Shown: positions 30,342 through 37,000 of the stretch, piece by piece
How positions within the stretch are numbered: position 1 is the first letter of the stretch
How the letters are laid out: every line of letters begins with the position of its first letter
From: Patescibacteria group bacterium
GTDB taxonomy: Bacteria > Patescibacteriota > Kazan-3B-28
DNA length: 64,000 nucleotides
Reading direction: 5' to 3'
NCBI GenBank assembly: GCA_041649135.1
Contig: JBAZNQ010000001.1
Span: 291,037-355,036, forward strand
The notes under the pieces: generated by a model
What the model saw: only the letters and a program-made list of their open reading frames with translations
Databases searched by the model: none
What the model was told of the DNA's origin: nothing
Position numbers and translations under genes: made by a program

Positions 30342-31110
30342 TTGTCCCCTCCTCTACTTTAACTGCTAGTTCTTCTTCCCCGCCAGCCTTTTCACTATCG
30401 TCTGTTGGCTGATCGCCGGTGGCTAGCGGCCGATCGCTCACCATACAAGCTTCCGCCACTAATTCAGCCACATAACTAATCGCTTTTTTCGCATCATCAT
30501 TAGACGGGATCGGATAATCAATCAAGCTAGGATCAGAATTAGTATCCACCATTGCGATTACCGGCAGCTTCAGTTTTTTTGCCTCCCGTACCGCAATGGC
30601 ATCCTGTAATGTACTCACTACAAAGATTGCCGCTGGCAAATTGCGCATTTCTCTCAAACCGCCCAAGCTGAACTGCAAAGTCTTGTAAACTTTGTCCAAT
30701 TCTGCCCGTTCTTTTTTGGTCATGTCATCAAAATTATTTTTGGCAAAGCGGTCATCAATTTCCCGCATATATTTCAATCGCTTCTTCAGCGTATCGAAAT
30801 TGGTTAATAGCCCGCCCATCCACCGCTCGTCAACGTATGGCATCCCACAAGCTTCTGCCGCCTGCTTAATAATCGGACCAGCTTGTTTCTTTGTCCCAAC
30901 AAAAATAATCTGCTTACCCTCTGTCGCCAGCTCATGCGCAAATTCCAGCGCCGATGTCAGTAGTGGCAAAGTTTTTGTCAGATCAATTAAATGAATGCCA
31001 TCTCTGGCCTCAAAAATATACGAATCCATCTTCGGGTTACGCCGAAAAGTCTGATGCCCAAAGTGCATCCCCGCTTCCATCATCGCTTCGATCGAAATCT
31101 TCTGCTTCAT
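30331..31110 (-). CDS. rpsB: 30S ribosomal protein S2
   Basis: MMEAGMHFGHQTFRRNPKM... The start was moved to the ATG at 31108-31110. Confidence 0.9.
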   Translation of the reverse strand: MKQKISIEAMMEAGMHFGHQTFRRNPKMDSYIFEARDGIHLIDLTKTLPLLTSALEFAHELATEGKQIIFVGTKKQAGPIIKQAAEACGMPYVDERWMGGLLTNFDTLKKRLKYMREIDDRFAKNNFDDMTKKERAELDKVYKTLQFSLGGLREMRNLPAAIFVVSTLQDAIAVREAKKLKLPVIAMVDTNSDPSLIDYPIPSNDDAKKAISYVAELVAEACMVSDRPLATGDQPTDDSEKAGGEEELAVKVEEGTNGN

Positions 31111-31300
31111 ACCTAATTCTCCTTTTATTCCTCCCCGCGCCATTTTAATGTCTCGTCTTGAGCTGATTAGCTAGTGATCAGCAGGAGCAGACGATTTTTA
31201 CTCGCACCTAAACTGGCAAGAGTAAAAACGGCGGGGTGTGTTGATATACAGTCGGCATCTTAACCGACTCCGGACCATAAGTCAACACCGTCCACATCAT

Positions 31301-32431
31301 TTATAACCCCCTAATCTGGTCTTGTAAGCGGTGGCTATTGACGTGAGTCAGATACCCCAGATACGACTGATACCTATTTTCAAGATTGTCATCCTCTCTA
31401 TCAATAGATCTTTGGAGATTCTTGAACATCCGCTTCACCGTCTTTTTTCTAGGCAAACTATAGTGTGGTAACGCCACATACCCGACATAATCTATACCCC
31501 AATTGAGCTTTCTCAAGGAAATCTTGTCTGGATGAAGAATGAGCTTGAGACGAGTTTTAAGGAACTGGTTTACCTCAACTAGATAACCCATCAGCTCGTC
31601 TGGGTTATTAGCCAAGAAAACGAAATCATCGGCATACCGCAAATAATGTTCGGCTTTCAATCGATGCTTCACGAACTTGTCCAATGGGTCCATATAGATA
31701 TTAGCGAATAGTTGAGAAGTTAAGTTGCCCAGCGGCATTCCTTTGCCATGAGAGTGTTCAAAGCTGTGGATAATATTCTCTAACAAACTAAATAGCTTCT
31801 CGTCGGTGATTCTTTCCCGGAGCAAACCGATCAGAATATCATGGTCGATGCTATCGAAAAACTTGCGAATATCGCACTTGAGAGCGAAGCACGGTCGGAT
31901 GCAATTTTTACTAATTGAACGAGTCATCTGACATAGCCGAGCGAATGCTTTATGTGTCCCTTTCTCATTCCGACAAGAATAGCTGTCAAAACTAAAACTC
32001 ATATCCCATTTAGGATACAAGACCCGATAGATAGCCCTGTGTAACAACCTATCCCTAACAGCCGCCTTACTGATTGTTCTTATTTTAGGATCAACGATCT
32101 GAAATTGACGGTATCTGGTATGCTTATATGTTCCACTCGTCAGATCTCGTTGTAACTGAAATAGGTTATTTTCTAATGTATATTCAAATATTCGCAGGTC
32201 TGTCTTGTTTCGCTTGCCTTTTCGAAACTCATGCCAAGCTGCCAACAGGTTGTCGATGCGGATAACTTCATCAAAAACTCTCTCATGGAAAAAAATTCTT
32301 TTAACGCCCCCCCCCGCACGGATTTGACGAAATCCTGATTGTTTCTCGGTTGTACGGATTTTACAAAGCTTTGCATGATGCTTTGCTGAAATTCCCGAAG
32401 GTTGAACGATATAGTTTGGGACAAACTGCAC
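31301..32431 (-). CDS. diversity-generating retroelement reverse transcriptase (5' end uncertain)
   Basis: Motif 0 is IDNLLAAWHEF. The DGR-type RT4 motif is LGNLTSQ (SQ in place of the group-II intron SP). The YADDFVF catalytic box is present. The first ~55 codons overlap antisense avd, are low-complexity, and contain C9 (32308-32316) and A7 homopolymer runs. Confidence 0.8.
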   Translation of the reverse strand: MQFVPNYIVQPSGISAKHHAKLCKIRTTEKQSGFRQIRAGGGVKRIFFHERVFDEVIRIDNLLAAWHEFRKGKRNKTDLRIFEYTLENNLFQLQRDLTSGTYKHTRYRQFQIVDPKIRTISKAAVRDRLLHRAIYRVLYPKWDMSFSFDSYSCRNEKGTHKAFARLCQMTRSISKNCIRPCFALKCDIRKFFDSIDHDILIGLLRERITDEKLFSLLENIIHSFEHSHGKGMPLGNLTSQLFANIYMDPLDKFVKHRLKAEHYLRYADDFVFLANNPDELMGYLVEVNQFLKTRLKLILHPDKISLRKLNWGIDYVGYVALPHYSLPRKKTVKRMFKNLQRSIDREDDNLENRYQSYLGYLTHVNSHRLQDQIRGL

Positions 32432-32667
32432 AGAATGCCACTCTCGGATTGATCGAATTGTTGATTTCCGCTAGTAAAACAAGTCAACCACAACGAAAAT
32501 CCGACTGTTTGACATTAGCCAACACAAAACTAGAAATGATCAAACTGTTCTTGCGCTTGTCCAAAGACGTGAACGCGCTAACAGATAGAAGATATCTTGA
32601 GCTCCAATCCATCCTCCAAGAGGTCGGCAAAATGCTCGGAGGATGGATCAGATCTGTTAAGCGGTAG
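32350..32667 (+). CDS. avd: DGR accessory variability determinant (Avd, four-helix bundle), on the strand opposite to RT/TR/VR
   Basis: The C-terminus QSILQEVGKMLGGWIRSVKR closely resembles Bordetella phage bAvd (...EVGRILGSWIARVNRK). An FPKVERYSLGQ motif is present. Likely TTG start. The stop lies 12 nt before the TR. Confidence 0.65.
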   Translation: MYGFYKALHDALLKFPKVERYSLGQTAQNATLGLIELLISASKTSQPQRKSDCLTLANTKLEMIKLFLRLSKDVNALTDRRYLELQSILQEVGKMLGGWIRSVKR

Positions 32668-32679
32668 CAGAGGGTACTA

Positions 32680-32795
32680 CCGGGCAACGGCGCCATAGTT
32701 CCAATTGCGATTCGAGCGGTTGTCGTAGTTGACGTTCAGACCATCGTCAGTATTGAATTCGACATTCAGCGAGTTGTCAGCGTCGTGCGATATAG
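32680..32795 (-). repeat. DGR template repeat (TR)
   Basis: A 110-bp alignment with 33116-33225. All 18 mismatches are at minus-strand adenines of this copy (AAC/AAT codons). This copy does not lie in the target ORF. Confidence 0.8.
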
Positions 32796-33022
32796 CCCCT
32801 GTCTCATCCGTGTCACCGCCGAGGATATAGTATCTATCGGCTGTATTTTATTTGCGTCTTGTATAAACGCGTCGAAGACGGAGCAAGAAGTTCTCTCTGC
32901 TAGTTAGCTCTCCCAACCGCTCAAATTAAACGGTTGGCTCTGGCTGTCCAGATGAGAGGAAACGATGAACAGAGACAGAGCGTCTCTGCTGCACTACCAT
33001 TTCATCAATATTATACAAAAAT

Positions 33023-33048
33023 GCCCTGCTTCCCGTGAGAAGCAGGGC
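33023..33048 (-). promoter_or_regulatory. GC-rich 10-bp-stem hairpin downstream of the VR (candidate DGR homing-assisting cruciform)
   Basis: gccctgcttc-ccgtga-gaagcagggc, about 67 nt 3' of the VR on the coding strand. Confidence 0.45.
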
Positions 33049-33091
33049 AGGCCCAAGGGCCAAATCACAAATTGATAAAAGGTCCAGGGGT

Positions 33092-33868
33092 TCAAGGCAC
33101 GAGGGGCTTGAACTTCCGGGCAACGGCGCCATAGCCCCAATAGCGATCCGAGCGGTCGCCGTAGCCGACGCGCAGACCACCGTCAGTACTGAATCCGACA
33201 CTCAGCGAGTCGGCAGCGCCGCGCGCATACGAGTTGCGACACCTGATCCAGCCACCCATAAAGAGGACCCGACCGAAGGCCATAAAGTGACGGATCATCA
33301 GGTAAAGGGCTTCCTCCGCTGATGTTAGACCATCGCCGCCTTGCTCGATCGCCCACGTATTATGTTCGTCGGCGTTGAGGTTGAAGGGCCGATGTTCTGC
33401 ATCCGTCGAGTTCATGATCGCCGAGAGGTCGCACTCGATCGTGCCCGCTTCGGTGACCAGCTCTTCGCCATCGCAGTTCGGTGACGAATTAATCTTCATC
33501 CCAATCTTACGCGCCAGCCCGATGAGATGGGTGCGGTTCAGCCCACCCGGAATAAAGTAGTGATTTATGCCAGAGTCGCCTCGCAGAGCGCGGCGCACTT
33601 CATCCGGTATGCCACCATCTTCTTCGGCGAGCCCGAGCCGGATTAAGGCCTGGGCTTCGCGCTCGAGCCACTCCTGCGGGGTAATCTCGTTAACCACCAA
33701 CTTACCGGTCATAGCGAGCCACACTTGGTGACGGTAGACCGGGTCGTCGATGATCCGCTGGAAACAGCGGAGGACAGTTTCGAGGTTATCGCCAGATAGT
33801 GTCACTAGACGCTTGACGGCCTCCCCGAGGATAAACAGCGAATTCATGATGAAGTTCACGGATGACAT
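33092..33868 (-). CDS. DGR target protein with a C-terminal variable region (CLec/FGE-like tail)
   Basis: The VR encodes ...GGWIRCRNSYARGAADSLSVGFSTDGGLRVGYGDRSDRYWGYGAVARKF-COOH. GC-rich. Confidence 0.7.
   Translation of the reverse strand: MSSVNFIMNSLFILGEAVKRLVTLSGDNLETVLRCFQRIIDDPVYRHQVWLAMTGKLVVNEITPQEWLEREAQALIRLGLAEEDGGIPDEVRRALRGDSGINHYFIPGGLNRTHLIGLARKIGMKINSSPNCDGEELVTEAGTIECDLSAIMNSTDAEHRPFNLNADEHNTWAIEQGGDGLTSAEEALYLMIRHFMAFGRVLFMGGWIRCRNSYARGAADSLSVGFSTDGGLRVGYGDRSDRYWGYGAVARKFKPLVP
33116..33231 (-). repeat. DGR variable repeat (VR) at the 3' end of the target gene
   Basis: TR AAC becomes GGC/GAC/CGC and TR AAT becomes TAT/GAT/AGT. The shared GC-rich 3' end (ctatggcgccgttgcccgg) is a candidate initiation-of-mutagenic-homing (IMH) site. 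Confidence 0.8.
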
Positions 33869-34034
33869 ATCCGTACACCTCGCTCATTGTAAAGTTGCTG
33901 GTGGGTGTCGTCAACTAGGGTTAACGCCTGAAAATCACAGGTCCACCATACACCGCCAAGATAACAGAAAAAACCACCTGAAGTCAAGTGATTTTCTACT
34001 CTGGAAGCAACTTTTTCTACATACCCAAGACCCC

Positions 34035-37000
34035 CTAATTATCCAAACCCGACTGATCAGATTGTTGGGGTTGGTTAGACCCGCCTCCCCATTGGTCAGA
34101 TTGTCGAGATTGATTAGATTGGTGCAGATTGGTTAGATTGTCTGGCAATTCTCCCCACAACCCAACCCCAGGTTCTACTAGCGGCCGGTTTTCCGAAGTC
34201 ATCGGTATAGCTTGCATCGGATTGACTGGCCAGACTGCCTGCCCACTTTGGTTATTGGTCATTGGATATTGGATATTATCCCGCCGGCGGCGGGATCCAA
34301 ACCACTTTCCCATCGCATCAAACCAAACATACAGGATCGGAGTGGTCACAAATGACAAGAAACCAGACACGATAATCCCAAAGACAATGACCGTCGCCAA
34401 CCCTCTCCAGAATGGCGAGAATAGTGCCAACGGCATTAATCCGGCAAAGATAGTCATCTTAGTTAGCAAGATCGGTTTAAACCGAACTGTGATCGAAGTG
34501 GCAATTGCCTCTTGTGCGCTCATCCCCTTCGCTCGCATTTGATTCGCAAAATCAATGATCAGAATTGTAACGTTTACTACGATCCCCGCCATCGCTACCA
34601 CCCCCAATAATTCCAAGAAGCCTAATTGACCAGTCGCAATTGCTACGGCTGGGAATACTCCAATAAAACCTAATGGCACAGCAAATAAAATAATTATTGG
34701 CGACAAGATTGATCTAAAGAAGCCAACCAGAATTATGTAAATCAGGAATAAGGCAATAATTAACGCAATGAACAGCTGGCCGAATGATTCCGTTATTGCC
34801 CCCGCTACCCCTTCCGTTTCCGTTGCGCTTTCGGCATCCAGCCCTAAAGCGTCTAATTTATCATCATCCAAATATTTGGTTAGCTCCGACTGTACCTTTA
34901 ATGGGTCAGTCTCACTATCTACTTTTGCTCTGATCGTCACATATCGTTTGCCATCCAATCTTTCAATGCTCTGCGCTGCTTGTGCTTCAGTTCCGGTAAT
35001 TAAATTATCAACCGTTGGGACACTAATTACTCCGGTCATGGTACTACCGACCGCAGTTGATACCGGCAATTGTTTAATTTCATCCAGACTATCGATCGTC
35101 TTATCCATCTTGGTGATGACCTTATACACCTCGTCATCTAGTTTCAGATTTATCACCTCCGTCTCGTCTAGCTGATTCTTAACCACATTCGCCAAAGCTA
35201 ACGGATTCAAGTTCATTAAATTATTAGTGTCCAAGACTAATGCCGTTCCGCTACTCTTGTCATCAACCTTCAATGAGTTTTCTGTTTTGGTCACACCATC
35301 TTGAGTTTTCAAAAATTCCTCCACATCATTGGCTGCTTTTTGTAGTTTGTCTAAATCTTGATCAAACAACCGGATGCTCACCGGATACGCCTCCTGTGGT
35401 GGAGCTGATTCGTCCATCGTCGCTACTACTTCTGCGCCCTGTAACCCACCAAAGTAATCATTCGCATCCTCCACTAATTTAGCGGCCGTTCTTAAATCTT
35501 CGTCCTGACGTTCTACCATTGGGAACAGTTCCGCCACCATCACGAAGGAATTCCCCGTCTGTTCATAAACCGCAAATTTACTTACTTCTTTCTGCTTTGA
35601 CAAATACTGCTGGACCGGGTCAATAACTTTTATCGCTTTATCAAATGCCCACCGGTCGCTCAACGTACCAGTTATCATCACCATGTCGGCATCGCCAGTC
35701 GAAGCAAACTGCACAACCTTAACTTGCTCTGTGGCGATAAATGCTCCCCCAATTGCTATTGGCGCAATAATTGCCGCCAGAATGATCAAGCCTCTCGCTA
35801 CTTGTTTGCCAACCCCATTCCCCAACAAATTGGTTACTAATCGCCCAATCCATTTTGAGACTGCCCAAACCCCAACCAATTCCGACTTACCATCTGCCTG
35901 CGATTGAACTTTTTTGCTTGGCTTCAACCAATTAGCGCCAACCGGCAAGAAAAATAAAGTCGGTACGATAAAGGACGACACCACTGCCGGAATAACTGTC
36001 TGGGGAATATATTGGATGATTTGTCCAAAAAATCCCGACACCACTCCGAATGGAATAAATACCACAAAATTAGCGATAGCTGACAAGAGCACCCCCAATC
36101 CTACTGCGTTAAAAGTTTTGATTGCCGCCTCTTTACCGGAATAGCCTTGTTCCCGATATCGTTGCATCGCCTCCAAAAACACGATCGTCGGGTCAACTAC
36201 CAGCCCGACCACCAAGATCATTGAAAACAATACGATCGTATTAATTGAAATCCCCGCTAGCTTCAAATAAGCAGTCGTCATCCCGAGCGCTAACGGGATC
36301 GATAATCCAGCCAAGACTGCTACTCGCCAGTTCACAAAGATCAGCAAGAACAGCACCACCAAAGTAATCCCGCCGAACAGATAACCGATCACCCCCAACG
36401 ATCCTAATGCCTCTATATTGCCGCCGATAATACTCTTCTTGATCTCCGATAATTGATCACCAGTATATTTGGCTACGTCATACACTTTGATGATCCTGAC
36501 ATTGCCAGACAATCGCGAATCGTCTTCCAGTTCCGCATATTTATCGTCCAACCGTTCGCCTAAAGCTAACACGTCTTCGTTGGTCTCTGCCATTACCCAA
36601 AGCACAACCGCTCGGTCAATCCGCATCCCGCCCGCATCTTCGATTGCTTCATCACCATCATTCTCTCTGGAACCAACTCGATTGTAGTAATCGTTGTTAT
36701 TAATCGTCTGTTTAATCGTCGCAATATCTTTCAATCTGACATTTGGGCCGATCAACATATTCTCTAACTCACTTATTTCGGTCAGCGGCCGTTTGACGCT
36801 TAGAGAGTACTTATCTTGTTGTTCATCATAAAAAGATCCCAACGGCATCTCAAATTGAGCCGCTTTCAGTAGCGCCTCAACCTGTGTCCGCTGGATTCCC
36901 ATTTGGGAGAGCTTCGCACTATCAAACGTAATTTCGATCTCTGGCGTTAACGGATTGCTGATCTTAACTTCTTTTACCCCCTTAACTGTCTCCAGCTCAT

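What the first reader, a model, noticed from the sequence alone, without database searches (positions are those of the whole stretch)
32281..32680. Unusual DGR architecture: avd is antisense to the RT, TR and target, and the RT 5' end overlaps it and carries C9/A7 homopolymers
The TR adenines are on the minus strand, so the TR-RNA, the RT and the target are all minus-sense. The only Avd-like ORF (32350-32667) is on the plus strand, ending 12 nt before the TR. Canonical cassettes have avd-TR-RT co-oriented.

The annotated RT ATG (32431) sits inside antisense avd. The first about 55 RT codons look non-protein-like and contain a C9 run (32308-32316) immediately next to an A7 run (32291-32297). 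There is no ATG between those runs and motif 0.

Three readings are possible: a genuinely divergent avd / RT-TR arrangement with a non-ATG RT start, a slippery programmed or phase-variable start, or an assembly homopolymer error.
Basis: partly seen in the sequence, partly recalled or inferred. Interest (0 to 1): 0.55.

Follow-up and report, generated by a model that had tools for sequence, protein, structure and literature searches.

The report
Slippery repeat gating a hypermutation cassette
The backwards-facing avd gene is the already-described normal layout for this group of bacteria. The C9 run, however, is a conserved slippage-prone repeat inside the head-to-head overlap of avd and the reverse transcriptase, and as assembled it leaves both genes out of frame with their ATG start codons, so it may act as an on/off switch for targeted hypermutation.

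Summary
The cassette is a real diversity-generating retroelement (DGR) in a Patescibacteria (CPR) genome. Of 19 TR/VR mismatches, 18 lie at minus-strand TR adenines. The plus-strand ORF is a true Avd. TR-(avd)-RT is not unusual: it is the published architecture B3, which covers 90% of CPR DGRs, and all 71 related genome loci with enough upstream sequence have it.

The new part is the C9 run. A poly-C/G tract of 8-15 nt, or a dinucleotide repeat, sits at the same place in 59 of 72 related genome loci. The metagenome scan, which required at least 8 G, added 120 more loci.

In the window, avd's ATG (32285) and an RT ATG (32376, minus strand) lie on opposite sides of the tract. Both are out of frame at C9, and both come into frame at C10. 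All 16 relatives whose RT lacks a start codon near its core show the same coupling. Repeat-free relatives have in-frame ATGs. About 70% of tract-bearing avd genes are out of frame, yet their ORFs are intact. One near-identical pair (C8 vs C9) differs in frame state.

Best reading: a slippage-dependent gate on Avd, and here also on RT. Whether slippage acts on DNA, RNA or the ribosome is unresolved. An assembly error is unlikely.

The parts
33092..33868 (-). DGR target gene (258 aa) with the variable region at its C-terminus
   Evidence: ORF listed. The VR lies inside its 3' end. It matches no Pfam or NCBIfam family. A promoter-like site lies at 33914-33886.
33112..33225 (-). Variable region (VR)
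   Evidence: 114-nt direct repeat of the TR at 83% identity. 18 of the 19 differences are at TR adenines.
33022..33049 (-). 12-bp GC-rich hairpin followed by a T-run, 43 nt after the target stop codon. It could be an intrinsic terminator or the hairpin that DGRs carry downstream of the VR.
   Evidence: Terminator-like hit. Its function is inferred.
32676..32789 (-). Template region (TR); its adenines are on the minus strand
   Evidence: 30 adenines in the TR, of which 18 are substituted in the VR.
32305..32667 (+). avd core reading frame. It is open from just after a TAA (32302-32304) to the stop at 32665-32667. Homology to Avd starts at about 32335, upstream of the TTG at 32350 that is the first canonical start codon in this frame.
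   Evidence: PF22296 E=1.7e-18 and NF033474 77 bits for the 105-aa version. Adding the upstream residues extends the match to profile position 2 and raises NF033474 to 81.5 bits, above its cut-off of 80.
32285..32338 (+). avd leader: ATG at 32285 in a frame that, at C9, ends after 17 codons (MEKNSFNAPPRTDLTKS*). At C10 it fuses to the avd core, giving a 127-aa protein, MEKNSFNAPPPHGFDEILIVSRLYGFYK...
   Evidence: Of the 13 repeat-free relatives, the 12 that could be evaluated all have an in-frame ATG at the equivalent place. The ATG is conserved in the sister element L215.
32307..32315 (.). C9/G9 homopolymer tract, the proposed slippage gate, lying inside the avd/RT head-to-head overlap
   Evidence: The ENA and Logan contigs are identical to the window here. 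The homologous tract is present in 59 of 72 related genome loci and in 120 metagenome loci.
32289..32295 (.). A7 run, which encodes E-K-N of the avd leader and I-F-F of the RT. It is not a conserved homopolymer.
   Evidence: One search finds 13 A7/T7 runs in the window. Relatives have interrupted versions.
32316..32376 (-). RT leader: ATG at 32376-32374, the antisense of the His codon in Avd's 'YKALH'. It stays open down to the tract. It is out of frame with the RT core at G9 and in frame at G10 (MQSFVKSVQPRNNQDFVKSVRGGGVKRIFFHERVFDEV...).
   Evidence: The ATG is conserved in L215, whereas the equivalent of the GTG at 32431 is not. The repeat-free relative L011 has this layout in frame.
31301..32287 (-). 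Conserved core of the DGR reverse transcriptase, running from His codon 32287-32285 (exact antisense of avd's ATG) to the stop codon
   Evidence: RVT_1 E=1e-25. 574 relatives were confirmed by tblastn, with homology starting at this point. The sequence contains the LGNLTSQLFAN motif.
32288..32431 (-). The 48 N-terminal codons of the called RT ORF (GTG start at 32431). They are antisense to avd and probably not part of the real protein.
   Evidence: Homology to other RTs stops at about 32290. The GTG is not conserved in L215.
32600..32655 (-). 18-bp hairpin in the RT-sense RNA about 20 nt after the end of the TR, lying within the antisense of avd's 3' end. Its role is unknown.
   Evidence: Inverted repeat I1. 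It is retained in both the MFE and the centroid fold.
32105..32184 (+). Two sigma-70-like promoter matches inside the antisense of the RT 5' coding region; candidate avd promoters
   Evidence: These are consensus matches only.

Best explanation
This is a CPR-type DGR with the known B3 layout: target-VR, TR, inverted avd, then RT. The avd and RT genes are divergent and their 5' coding ends overlap head-to-head by 92 nt (32285-32376). In the in-frame state the two genes sit in exact codon-on-codon antisense register, and each gene's ATG is the reverse complement of a His codon in the other.

A slippage-prone C/G tract sits in the middle of this overlap. Tract length sets the reading frame of both genes at once. 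At C9, as assembled, both ATGs are out of frame with their cores. At C10 (or C7), both Avd (127 aa) and RT become ATG-initiated. Adenine-mutagenic cDNA synthesis needs the RT-Avd complex, so the tract gates or throttles mutagenic retrohoming of the target.

Shown by sequence comparison: the tract is conserved, the frame arithmetic holds, the two genes are coupled, frame states are mixed among relatives, and one natural pair differs in frame state.

Inferred: the gate works by slipped-strand length changes in DNA (phase variation), by RNA-polymerase or ribosome slippage on the same tract, or by both. Also inferred: the out-of-frame state silences diversification.
For: DGR identity.

The B3 layout is the norm in this clade: where all 71 genome loci with upstream sequence have it, and PMC5758913.

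The tract is conserved at the nucleotide level, not the protein level.
- 56 G runs of 8 or more lie at the junction, against 6 elsewhere in 604 kb.
- The run starts at different codon positions in different loci, giving xPPx, PPP or PPPP.
- (GT)n, (GA)n or (CT)n repeats occupy the same place in L003, L006, L007, L051 and L067.

Frame behaviour.
- The 12 repeat-free loci that could be evaluated all have an in-frame avd ATG, against 17 of 59 tract-bearing loci (Fisher p=4e-6).
- Across 156 tract loci, 44 are in frame, 81 need one base fewer and 31 need one base more, yet the Avd cores are intact.
- Frame states are mixed within 12 of 21 clusters at 80% Avd identity.
- L136 (C8, in frame) and L170 (C9, out of frame) are 99.5% identical over 1409 nt.

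Coupling of the two genes.
- In all 16 loci whose RT has no start codon between the tract and the core, an RT ATG beyond the tract comes into frame at the same tract length that puts avd in frame.
- Such an ATG exists in only 15 of 38 loci whose RT does have a nearby start (p=1.5e-5).
- The (GA)n locus L007 shows the same coupling, and repeat-free L011 has the in-frame layout for both genes.

The window itself: C9 in the ENA and Logan contigs. Sister element L215/L216 has G9, both ATGs conserved and the same frame state.
Against: - No read-level data are available, so length heterogeneity of the window's own tract has not been shown.
- Among 12 near-identical contig pairs from metagenomes, only 1 differs in tract length.
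- 8 of the 9 nearest relatives are all exactly 'one base short' despite different tract lengths and repeat types, and the sister element keeps G9 across 23% divergence. This looks more like a maintained, programmed configuration than free on/off switching.
- The coincidence of the RT and avd frames is partly expected from the favourable codon-on-codon antisense register: 12 of the 15 leader ATGs in the control group also coincide.
- Internal or non-canonical starts cannot be excluded. These include the ATT at 32338 (used as the start of the protein from NCBI), the TTG at 32350, and the GTG at 32431 for the RT.
- The VR differs from the TR at 18 adenines, so the element has been active at some time despite its present frame state.
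Confidence: 0.65

Rival explanations
1. Programmed recoding rather than DNA phase variation. The genomic state 'one base short' is the normal, fixed configuration. Functional Avd and RT are made at a low constitutive level when RNA polymerase adds a base on the 9-nt or longer homopolymer, or when ribosomes slip -1 on C CCC CCC / G GGG GGG. This keeps the mutagenic complex scarce.
For: - 8 of the 9 nearest relatives (L003, L004, L005, L007, L009, L215, L217 and the window) need +1/-2 although their tracts are C9, C11 or dinucleotide repeats.
- The sister element keeps G9 over an ungapped alignment at 77% identity.
- About 70% of consensus sequences are out of frame yet have intact ORFs.
- Tract lengths of 8-11 nt match the length of an RNA-DNA hybrid (my own knowledge).
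Against: - Across the whole family the required shift is not uniform: 81 loci need -1, 31 need +1 and 44 are in frame.
- In-frame alleles exist among close relatives.
- Dinucleotide repeats at the same site are classic substrates for DNA slippage and poor ribosomal slip sites.
- No conserved downstream stimulatory structure was looked for or found.
Confidence: 0.3
2. Assembly or sequencing error: the true tract in this organism is C10, and both genes are ordinary ATG-initiated ORFs.
For: - C10 would give clean ATG starts for both genes.
- Homopolymers are error-prone, and some contigs break at the tract (L018, L062, L100).
Against: - The ENA and Logan contigs both read C9.
- In the NCBI MAG, avd was called with an ATT start, which fits the out-of-frame state.
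- The sister element has G9 in separate JGI and Logan assemblies.
- The same kind of out-of-frame state appears in about 110 of 156 independent loci, mostly in JGI and ENA metagenome contigs.
Confidence: 0.07
3. The tract is not a switch. It is kept as a poly-proline/poly-glycine linker, or as an RNA or promoter element for the RT. Avd starts at an internal near-cognate or TTG codon (32338 or 32350) and the RT at GTG 32431 or ATT 32295, so both are expressed in every tract state.
For: - The protein from NCBI starts at the ATT (P0001).
- Repeat-free relatives have Gly/Pro-rich residues at the same place, such as LLGGGPGD encoded by GGT GGT GGT CCT.
- The sequence just after the tract is AT-rich with a weak TATTAA-like consensus.
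- In locus L034 another G10 directly abuts a TATAAT box.
- In 38 of 54 loci the RT start lies downstream of the tract.
Against: - Proline codons would not all be CCC in AT-rich genomes, and the run occupies different codon phases in different loci.
- Replacement by GT, GA or CT repeats destroys both a proline motif and a G-specific RNA motif.
- Avd profile matches extend upstream of the TTG.
- The GTG at 32431 is not conserved in the sister element, whereas both ATGs are.
- The 16/16 coupling would be left unexplained.
Confidence: 0.12
4. The cassette is a decaying, frameshifted pseudogene pair.
For: Both genes lack an in-frame ATG as assembled.
Against: - The only lesion is at the tract.
- The Avd and RT cores are full length and score well.
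- The same state is conserved in a sister element at 77% identity with no other indel in 1469 nt.
- The VR shows 18 adenine-specific changes.
Confidence: 0.04

Closest known systems
DGR cassette architecture B3, TR-(avd)-RT, of CPR bacteria (Wu et al. 2018, Nucleic Acids Res, PMC5758913)
   Same: The order and orientation are the same: target-VR, TR, avd on the reverse strand, RT. The host group is Patescibacteria. The target protein has no recognisable domain.
   Different: Nothing differs in architecture. In the passages retrieved by my term searches, that paper does not mention start-codon overlap, a promoter or a repeat tract at the avd/RT junction.
Bordetella phage BPP-1 DGR (mtd-avd-TR-brt), with the bRT-Avd complex that synthesises adenine-mutagenised cDNA (Handa et al. 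2018, PMC6182149)
   Same: The parts list is the same, TR-to-VR substitutions are adenine-specific, and Avd belongs to the same family (PF22296/NF033474). By my own eye the C-terminus resembles bAvd (EVGKMLGGWIRSVKR against EVGRILGSWIARVNRK).
   Different: In BPP-1, avd, TR and brt are co-oriented and can be one transcript. Here avd is inverted between the TR and the RT, the two genes overlap head-to-head, and a repeat tract interrupts both frames.
Simple-sequence-repeat contingency loci (poly-G/C tracts in Neisseria, Haemophilus and Campylobacter genes; e.g. PMC5084427, PMC4965091)
   Same: The tract type and length match (G/C runs of 8-13, or dinucleotide repeats). The tract lies in the 5' part of the ORF, frame states are mixed among relatives, and the ORFs stay intact.
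   Different: The gated genes encode a mutagenesis machine, not a surface structure. One tract lies in the coding overlap of two antisense genes and shifts both. Switching has not been observed in reads or cultures.
Repeats between the divergent fimbrial genes hifA/hifB of Haemophilus influenzae (recalled from my own knowledge, not checked here)
   Same: One repeat tract controls two divergently oriented genes at once.
   Different: There the repeat changes promoter spacing. Here it changes the reading frame inside two overlapping ORFs.
Transcriptional slippage or programmed frameshifting on homopolymers (Thermus dnaX, IS elements, poly(A) tracts of endosymbionts; recalled from my own knowledge)
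   Same: A homopolymer of about 9 nt or more separates a start codon from an out-of-frame but intact ORF.
   Different: Those cases use A/T runs and a fixed direction of shift. Here the tracts are C/G or dinucleotide repeats, and the required shift varies among relatives.

Membership tests
Diversity-generating retroelement (DGR) | A TR/VR repeat pair whose differences fall almost only at TR adenines | tested here: met
   In the 114-nt repeat there are 19 mismatches, 18 of them at minus-strand TR adenines.
Diversity-generating retroelement (DGR) | A reverse transcriptase of the DGR clade next to the TR | tested here: met
   RVT_1 E=1e-25. 574 tblastn-confirmed relatives are DGR RTs of Patescibacteria that have an Avd next to them. 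The LGNLTSQLFAN motif is visible in the sequence. No DGR-specific RT model was available in the libraries.
Diversity-generating retroelement (DGR) | The VR lies in the 3' end of a protein-coding target gene | tested here: met
   VR 33112-33225 lies within target ORF 33092-33868.
Avd (accessory variability determinant, bAvd-like four-helix bundle) | Profile match above the curated threshold | tested here: met
   PF22296 scores 67.5 bits against a cut-off of 40. NF033474 scores 77.2 bits for the TTG-started ORF (cut-off 80) and 81.5 bits once the upstream residues are added.
DGR architecture B3 (TR-(avd)-RT) | avd lies between the TR and the RT on the opposite strand | tested here: met
   Coordinates; definition from PMC5758913.
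SSR-mediated phase variation (contingency locus) | A hypermutable repeat (G/C run of about 7 or more, or 5 or more dinucleotide units) in the 5' ORF or promoter | tested here: met
   C9 at 32307-32315, between the ATG and the core of both genes.
SSR-mediated phase variation (contingency locus) | Repeat length differs between closely related strains and changes the frame state | tested here: inconclusive
   Met in related elements: L136 C8 (in frame) against L170 C9 (out of frame) at 99.5% identity, and L173 against L199. Not seen for the window's own element: the assemblies compared read C9, and the sister element also has 9. 11 of 12 near-identical pairs have equal lengths.
SSR-mediated phase variation (contingency locus) | Length heterogeneity within a population, and reversible switching of the phenotype | not testable with these tools
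   This needs raw reads or cultures.
Programmed frameshift or transcriptional slippage | The same direction of shift is required in all members | tested here: not met
   Family-wide, 81 loci need -1, 31 need +1 and 44 are in frame. It is met only within the nearest subclade, where 8 of 9 need +1/-2.

The most novel reading that the evidence does not exclude
Across CPR bacteria, a single hypermutable repeat placed inside the head-to-head coding overlap of avd and RT works as a bidirectional frameshift switch. One slippage event turns both halves of the mutagenic RT-Avd complex on or off. A lineage can then freeze a useful target variant and later re-open diversification: a stochastic switch placed on top of a targeted hypermutator.
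Probability: 0.4. Interest if true: 0.85.

Novelty: new variant of a known kind. Interest (0 to 1): 0.7.

Why it matters
How DGR activity is regulated, and how a cell stops mutating a target once a good variant has been found, is largely unknown. A conserved slippage tract that decides whether Avd is made, and in about a third of these elements RT as well, would be a simple built-in regulator. It can be tested by counting tract lengths in reads and correlating them with VR diversity in the same samples.

There are practical consequences too. Gene callers mis-annotate these loci: here the RT was called at 376 aa from a GTG, and avd from a TTG or ATT. DGR surveys that require intact ATG-initiated avd or RT genes will misjudge which CPR elements are functional.

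The layout is also a rare example of one repeat shifting two antisense overlapping ORFs at once.

Tried and rejected
- A co-oriented Avd on the minus strand: rejected, because the two minus-strand ORFs have no family match.
- A T5-to-T6 correction that would make the minus-strand ATG at 32286 start the RT (MREFFDEV...): rejected, because relatives read through the His codon in the present frame (H-E-G-V-F-D).
- Metagenome scan with the window's own tract flanks, to find alleles of other lengths: no hits.
- Avd cluster P0009/P0014/P0015, whose members are 136 and 100 aa: the DNA is identical, the lengths are gene-caller differences, and that lineage has no repeat.
- Search for VR variants of the same target protein: only the identical sequence exists, and the next relative is 68% identical.
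- Four further target homologues (P0038, P0045, P0047, P0041): their loci have no RT or Avd beside them.
- Exact look-up of the NCBI Avd protein P0001: not on record.
- Rfam search on 31000-34200: nothing.
- Literature searches pairing DGR with phase variation, homopolymer, frameshift and SSR terms: no paper describes a repeat tract in avd. Paul et al. 2017 (Nat Microbiol) and one 2026 preprint could not be read, so prior description cannot be fully excluded.
- A sigma-70 promoter using the tract as spacer: only a weak TATTAA-like consensus follows the tract, and no hit was found in the window.
Full report
**What is at the coordinates**

The window carries a compact DGR on the minus strand, next to rpsB, tsf and frr in a Patescibacteria-type genome.
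- The target gene is 33092-33868, with its VR at 33112-33225.
- The TR is 32676-32789. TR and VR differ at 19 of 114 positions, 18 of them at TR adenines read on the minus strand.
- The RT ORF is 31301-32431 (RVT_1, E=1e-25).
- The plus-strand ORF 32350-32667 is a genuine Avd: PF22296 E=1.7e-18, NF033474 77 bits. The minus-strand ORFs across that stretch match nothing.

- C9 is 32307-32315 and A7 is 32289-32295.
- The start at 32431 is a GTG, not an ATG.
- A7/T7 runs are common in this window, with 13 of them.

**The architecture is already known**

A scan of one genome per species returned 80 related RT loci, nearly all from Patescibacteria. An iterative Avd search found Avd on the strand opposite the RT, directly upstream of it, in every locus that has upstream sequence (71 of 71). 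The nine loci without a hit begin less than 130 nt before the RT match.

Wu et al. 2018 define this layout as architecture B3, TR-(avd)-RT. [quoted passage not shown] 'Unusual architecture' is therefore true only in comparison with the Bordetella phage prototype.

**The homopolymer is the real feature**

I aligned the junctions in RT orientation. A G run of 8-15 nt (mode 9-11) lies 7-55 nt upstream of the conserved RT N-terminus in 56 of the related loci. This is the C run in avd's 5' end.
- Five loci have (GT)n, (GA)n or (CT)n repeats at the same place.
- In 604 kb of these loci, only 6 other G/C runs of 8 or more exist.
- The run begins at different codon positions in different loci, so Avd reads xPPx, PPP or PPPP. 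The conservation is therefore at the nucleotide level, not the protein level.

**Frame arithmetic in the window**

On the plus strand, an ATG at 32285 opens a frame that runs into the tract and stops after 17 codons. The Avd core frame opens right after a TAA at 32302-32304. One extra C joins the two, giving MEKNSFNAPPPHGFDEILIVSRLYGFYK...

Adding these residues extends the Avd profile match to position 2 and lifts NF033474 above its cut-off.

On the minus strand, an ATG at 32376 opens a frame that runs into the same tract. At G9 it is out of frame with the RT core. At G10 it gives MQSFVKSVQPRNNQDFVKSVRGGGVKRIFFHERVFDEV....

In the in-frame state the two ORFs overlap by 92 nt in exact codon-on-codon antisense register. 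avd's ATG is the complement of the RT His codon at 32287-32285, and the RT's ATG is the complement of Avd's His codon at 32374-32376.

**The same logic in relatives**
- Of the 13 repeat-free loci, the 12 that could be evaluated all have an in-frame avd ATG at the equivalent position, against 17 of 59 repeat-bearing loci (p=4e-6).
- Pooling genome and metagenome loci gives 156 tract-bearing elements. 44 are in frame, 81 need one base fewer and 31 need one base more, and the Avd cores are intact in all.
- Frame states are mixed in 12 of 21 clusters at 80% Avd identity, and in all 8 clusters at 60%.
- L136 (C8, in frame) and L170 (C9, out of frame) come from two samples of one study and are 99.5% identical over 1409 nt.

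On the RT side, 38 of 54 loci have a canonical start between the tract and the RT core, so only Avd can be frame-gated there.

The other 16 loci, which include the window, have no such start. In all 16 an ATG beyond the tract comes into frame with the RT core at exactly the tract length that puts avd in frame. Such a leader ATG exists in only 15 of the 38 control loci (p=1.5e-5).

The (GA)n locus L007 obeys the same rule, and repeat-free L011 shows the in-frame layout for both genes.

Part of this frame coincidence is expected from the favourable antisense register, because 12 of the 15 control leader ATGs also coincide. The presence of a leader ATG in every locus that needs one is the stronger signal.

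**Is it an assembly error?**

The ENA contig (420 kb) and the Logan contig of SRR8542065 are identical to the window across the tract. The NCBI MAG protein starts at an ATT just downstream of the tract, which fits the out-of-frame state.

The closest relative found is L215/L216, present in separate JGI and Logan assemblies. It aligns without a gap over 1469 nt at 77% identity. It also has G9 and both ATGs, but lacks the equivalent of the GTG at 32431. An error at this one locus is therefore unlikely, and an error cannot explain the family-wide pattern.

**Which kind of slippage?**

This is not settled.

For DNA-level phase variation:
- dinucleotide repeats occupy the same site;
- frame states are mixed among close relatives;
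- one near-identical pair differs in frame state.

For programmed RNA or ribosome slippage:
- 8 of the 9 nearest relatives need +1/-2, although their tracts are C9, C11 or dinucleotide repeats;
- the sister element keeps G9;
- 11 of 12 near-identical contig pairs have equal tract lengths;
- most consensus sequences are out of frame.

Both mechanisms could act on the same tract. I commit to the general statement that expression of Avd, and here also of RT, depends on slippage at the tract, and I put about 0.65 on it. I put about 0.4 on the specific phase-variation switch.

**Function**

bRT and Avd act as a complex in cDNA synthesis (PMC6182149, listed; the mechanism is from my own knowledge). 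Gating either protein would therefore gate mutagenic retrohoming. The VR carries 18 adenine-site changes, so the element has been active at some time, whereas the present consensus state is out of frame for both genes. That fits a system that is mostly silent and occasionally re-opened, but it does not prove it.

**Novelty**

The architecture is already known. Eight full-text searches did not turn up a repeat tract in the avd/RT overlap or its coupling of both genes. Term searches within Wu 2018, Roux 2021 and a 2024 survey turned up no mention of it either. Paul et al. 2017 could not be read. I rate the finding a new variant of a known kind: simple-sequence-repeat or slippage control applied to a DGR, in an unusual bidirectional coding overlap.

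Noticed in passing
L003-L082, between the TR end and the avd stop (e.g. L006:3583-3615, L023:3586-3620); window 32600-32655: Most related B3 loci carry a strong hairpin followed by TTTTGTTTT in the RT sense, right after the TR and before the inverted avd. It looks like an intrinsic terminator or a structured 3' end of the TR RNA. The window lacks it and instead has an 18-bp hairpin inside the antisense of avd's 3' end. If the hairpin is a terminator, the RT must have its own promoter.
   Followed up: partly
Nearest relatives L003, L004, L005, L007, L009, L215, L217 and the window: 8 of the 9 closest elements are all in the 'needs +1 / -2' state despite different tract lengths (C9, C11) and repeat types. 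In the metagenome lineage whose RT starts ATGAAAATTCAATTG, 57% are in the 'needs -1' state. These biases are unexplained.
   Followed up: partly
L034:3404-3413 and L034:5253-5262: The same CPR contig has two more G10 tracts. One directly abuts a perfect TATAAT box. The other closes a hairpin 14 nt upstream of a second four-helix-bundle (Avd-like) gene. Repeat-based control may be widespread in these genomes.
   Followed up: partly
window 26684-27037 (-): A second four-helix-bundle protein (TIGR02436, 65 bits; 23S rRNA intervening-sequence protein family) lies 5 kb from the DGR. It is related to Avd but scores as the non-DGR family.
   Followed up: no
L010:3857-4050: This repeat-free relative has avd in frame, but its RT core is out of frame with its leader ATG. 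The shift falls near an A5 run. It could be a dead RT, an assembly error or a CTG start.
   Followed up: partly
L026:1-51; L018:1-4; L062:1-7; L100 contig end: Several contigs begin or end inside the tract, and L026 starts with 51 C. These are assembly breaks or artefacts at the homopolymer.
   Followed up: no
L116 and L206: Two otherwise different elements share an identical 121-nt stretch at the RT 5' end and diverge from the tract onward. This may reflect recombination at or near the tract.
   Followed up: no
window 33022-33049 (-): A 12-bp GC-rich hairpin with a T-run lies 43 nt after the target stop codon. It could be the target gene's terminator or the DGR hairpin downstream of the VR.
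   Followed up: no
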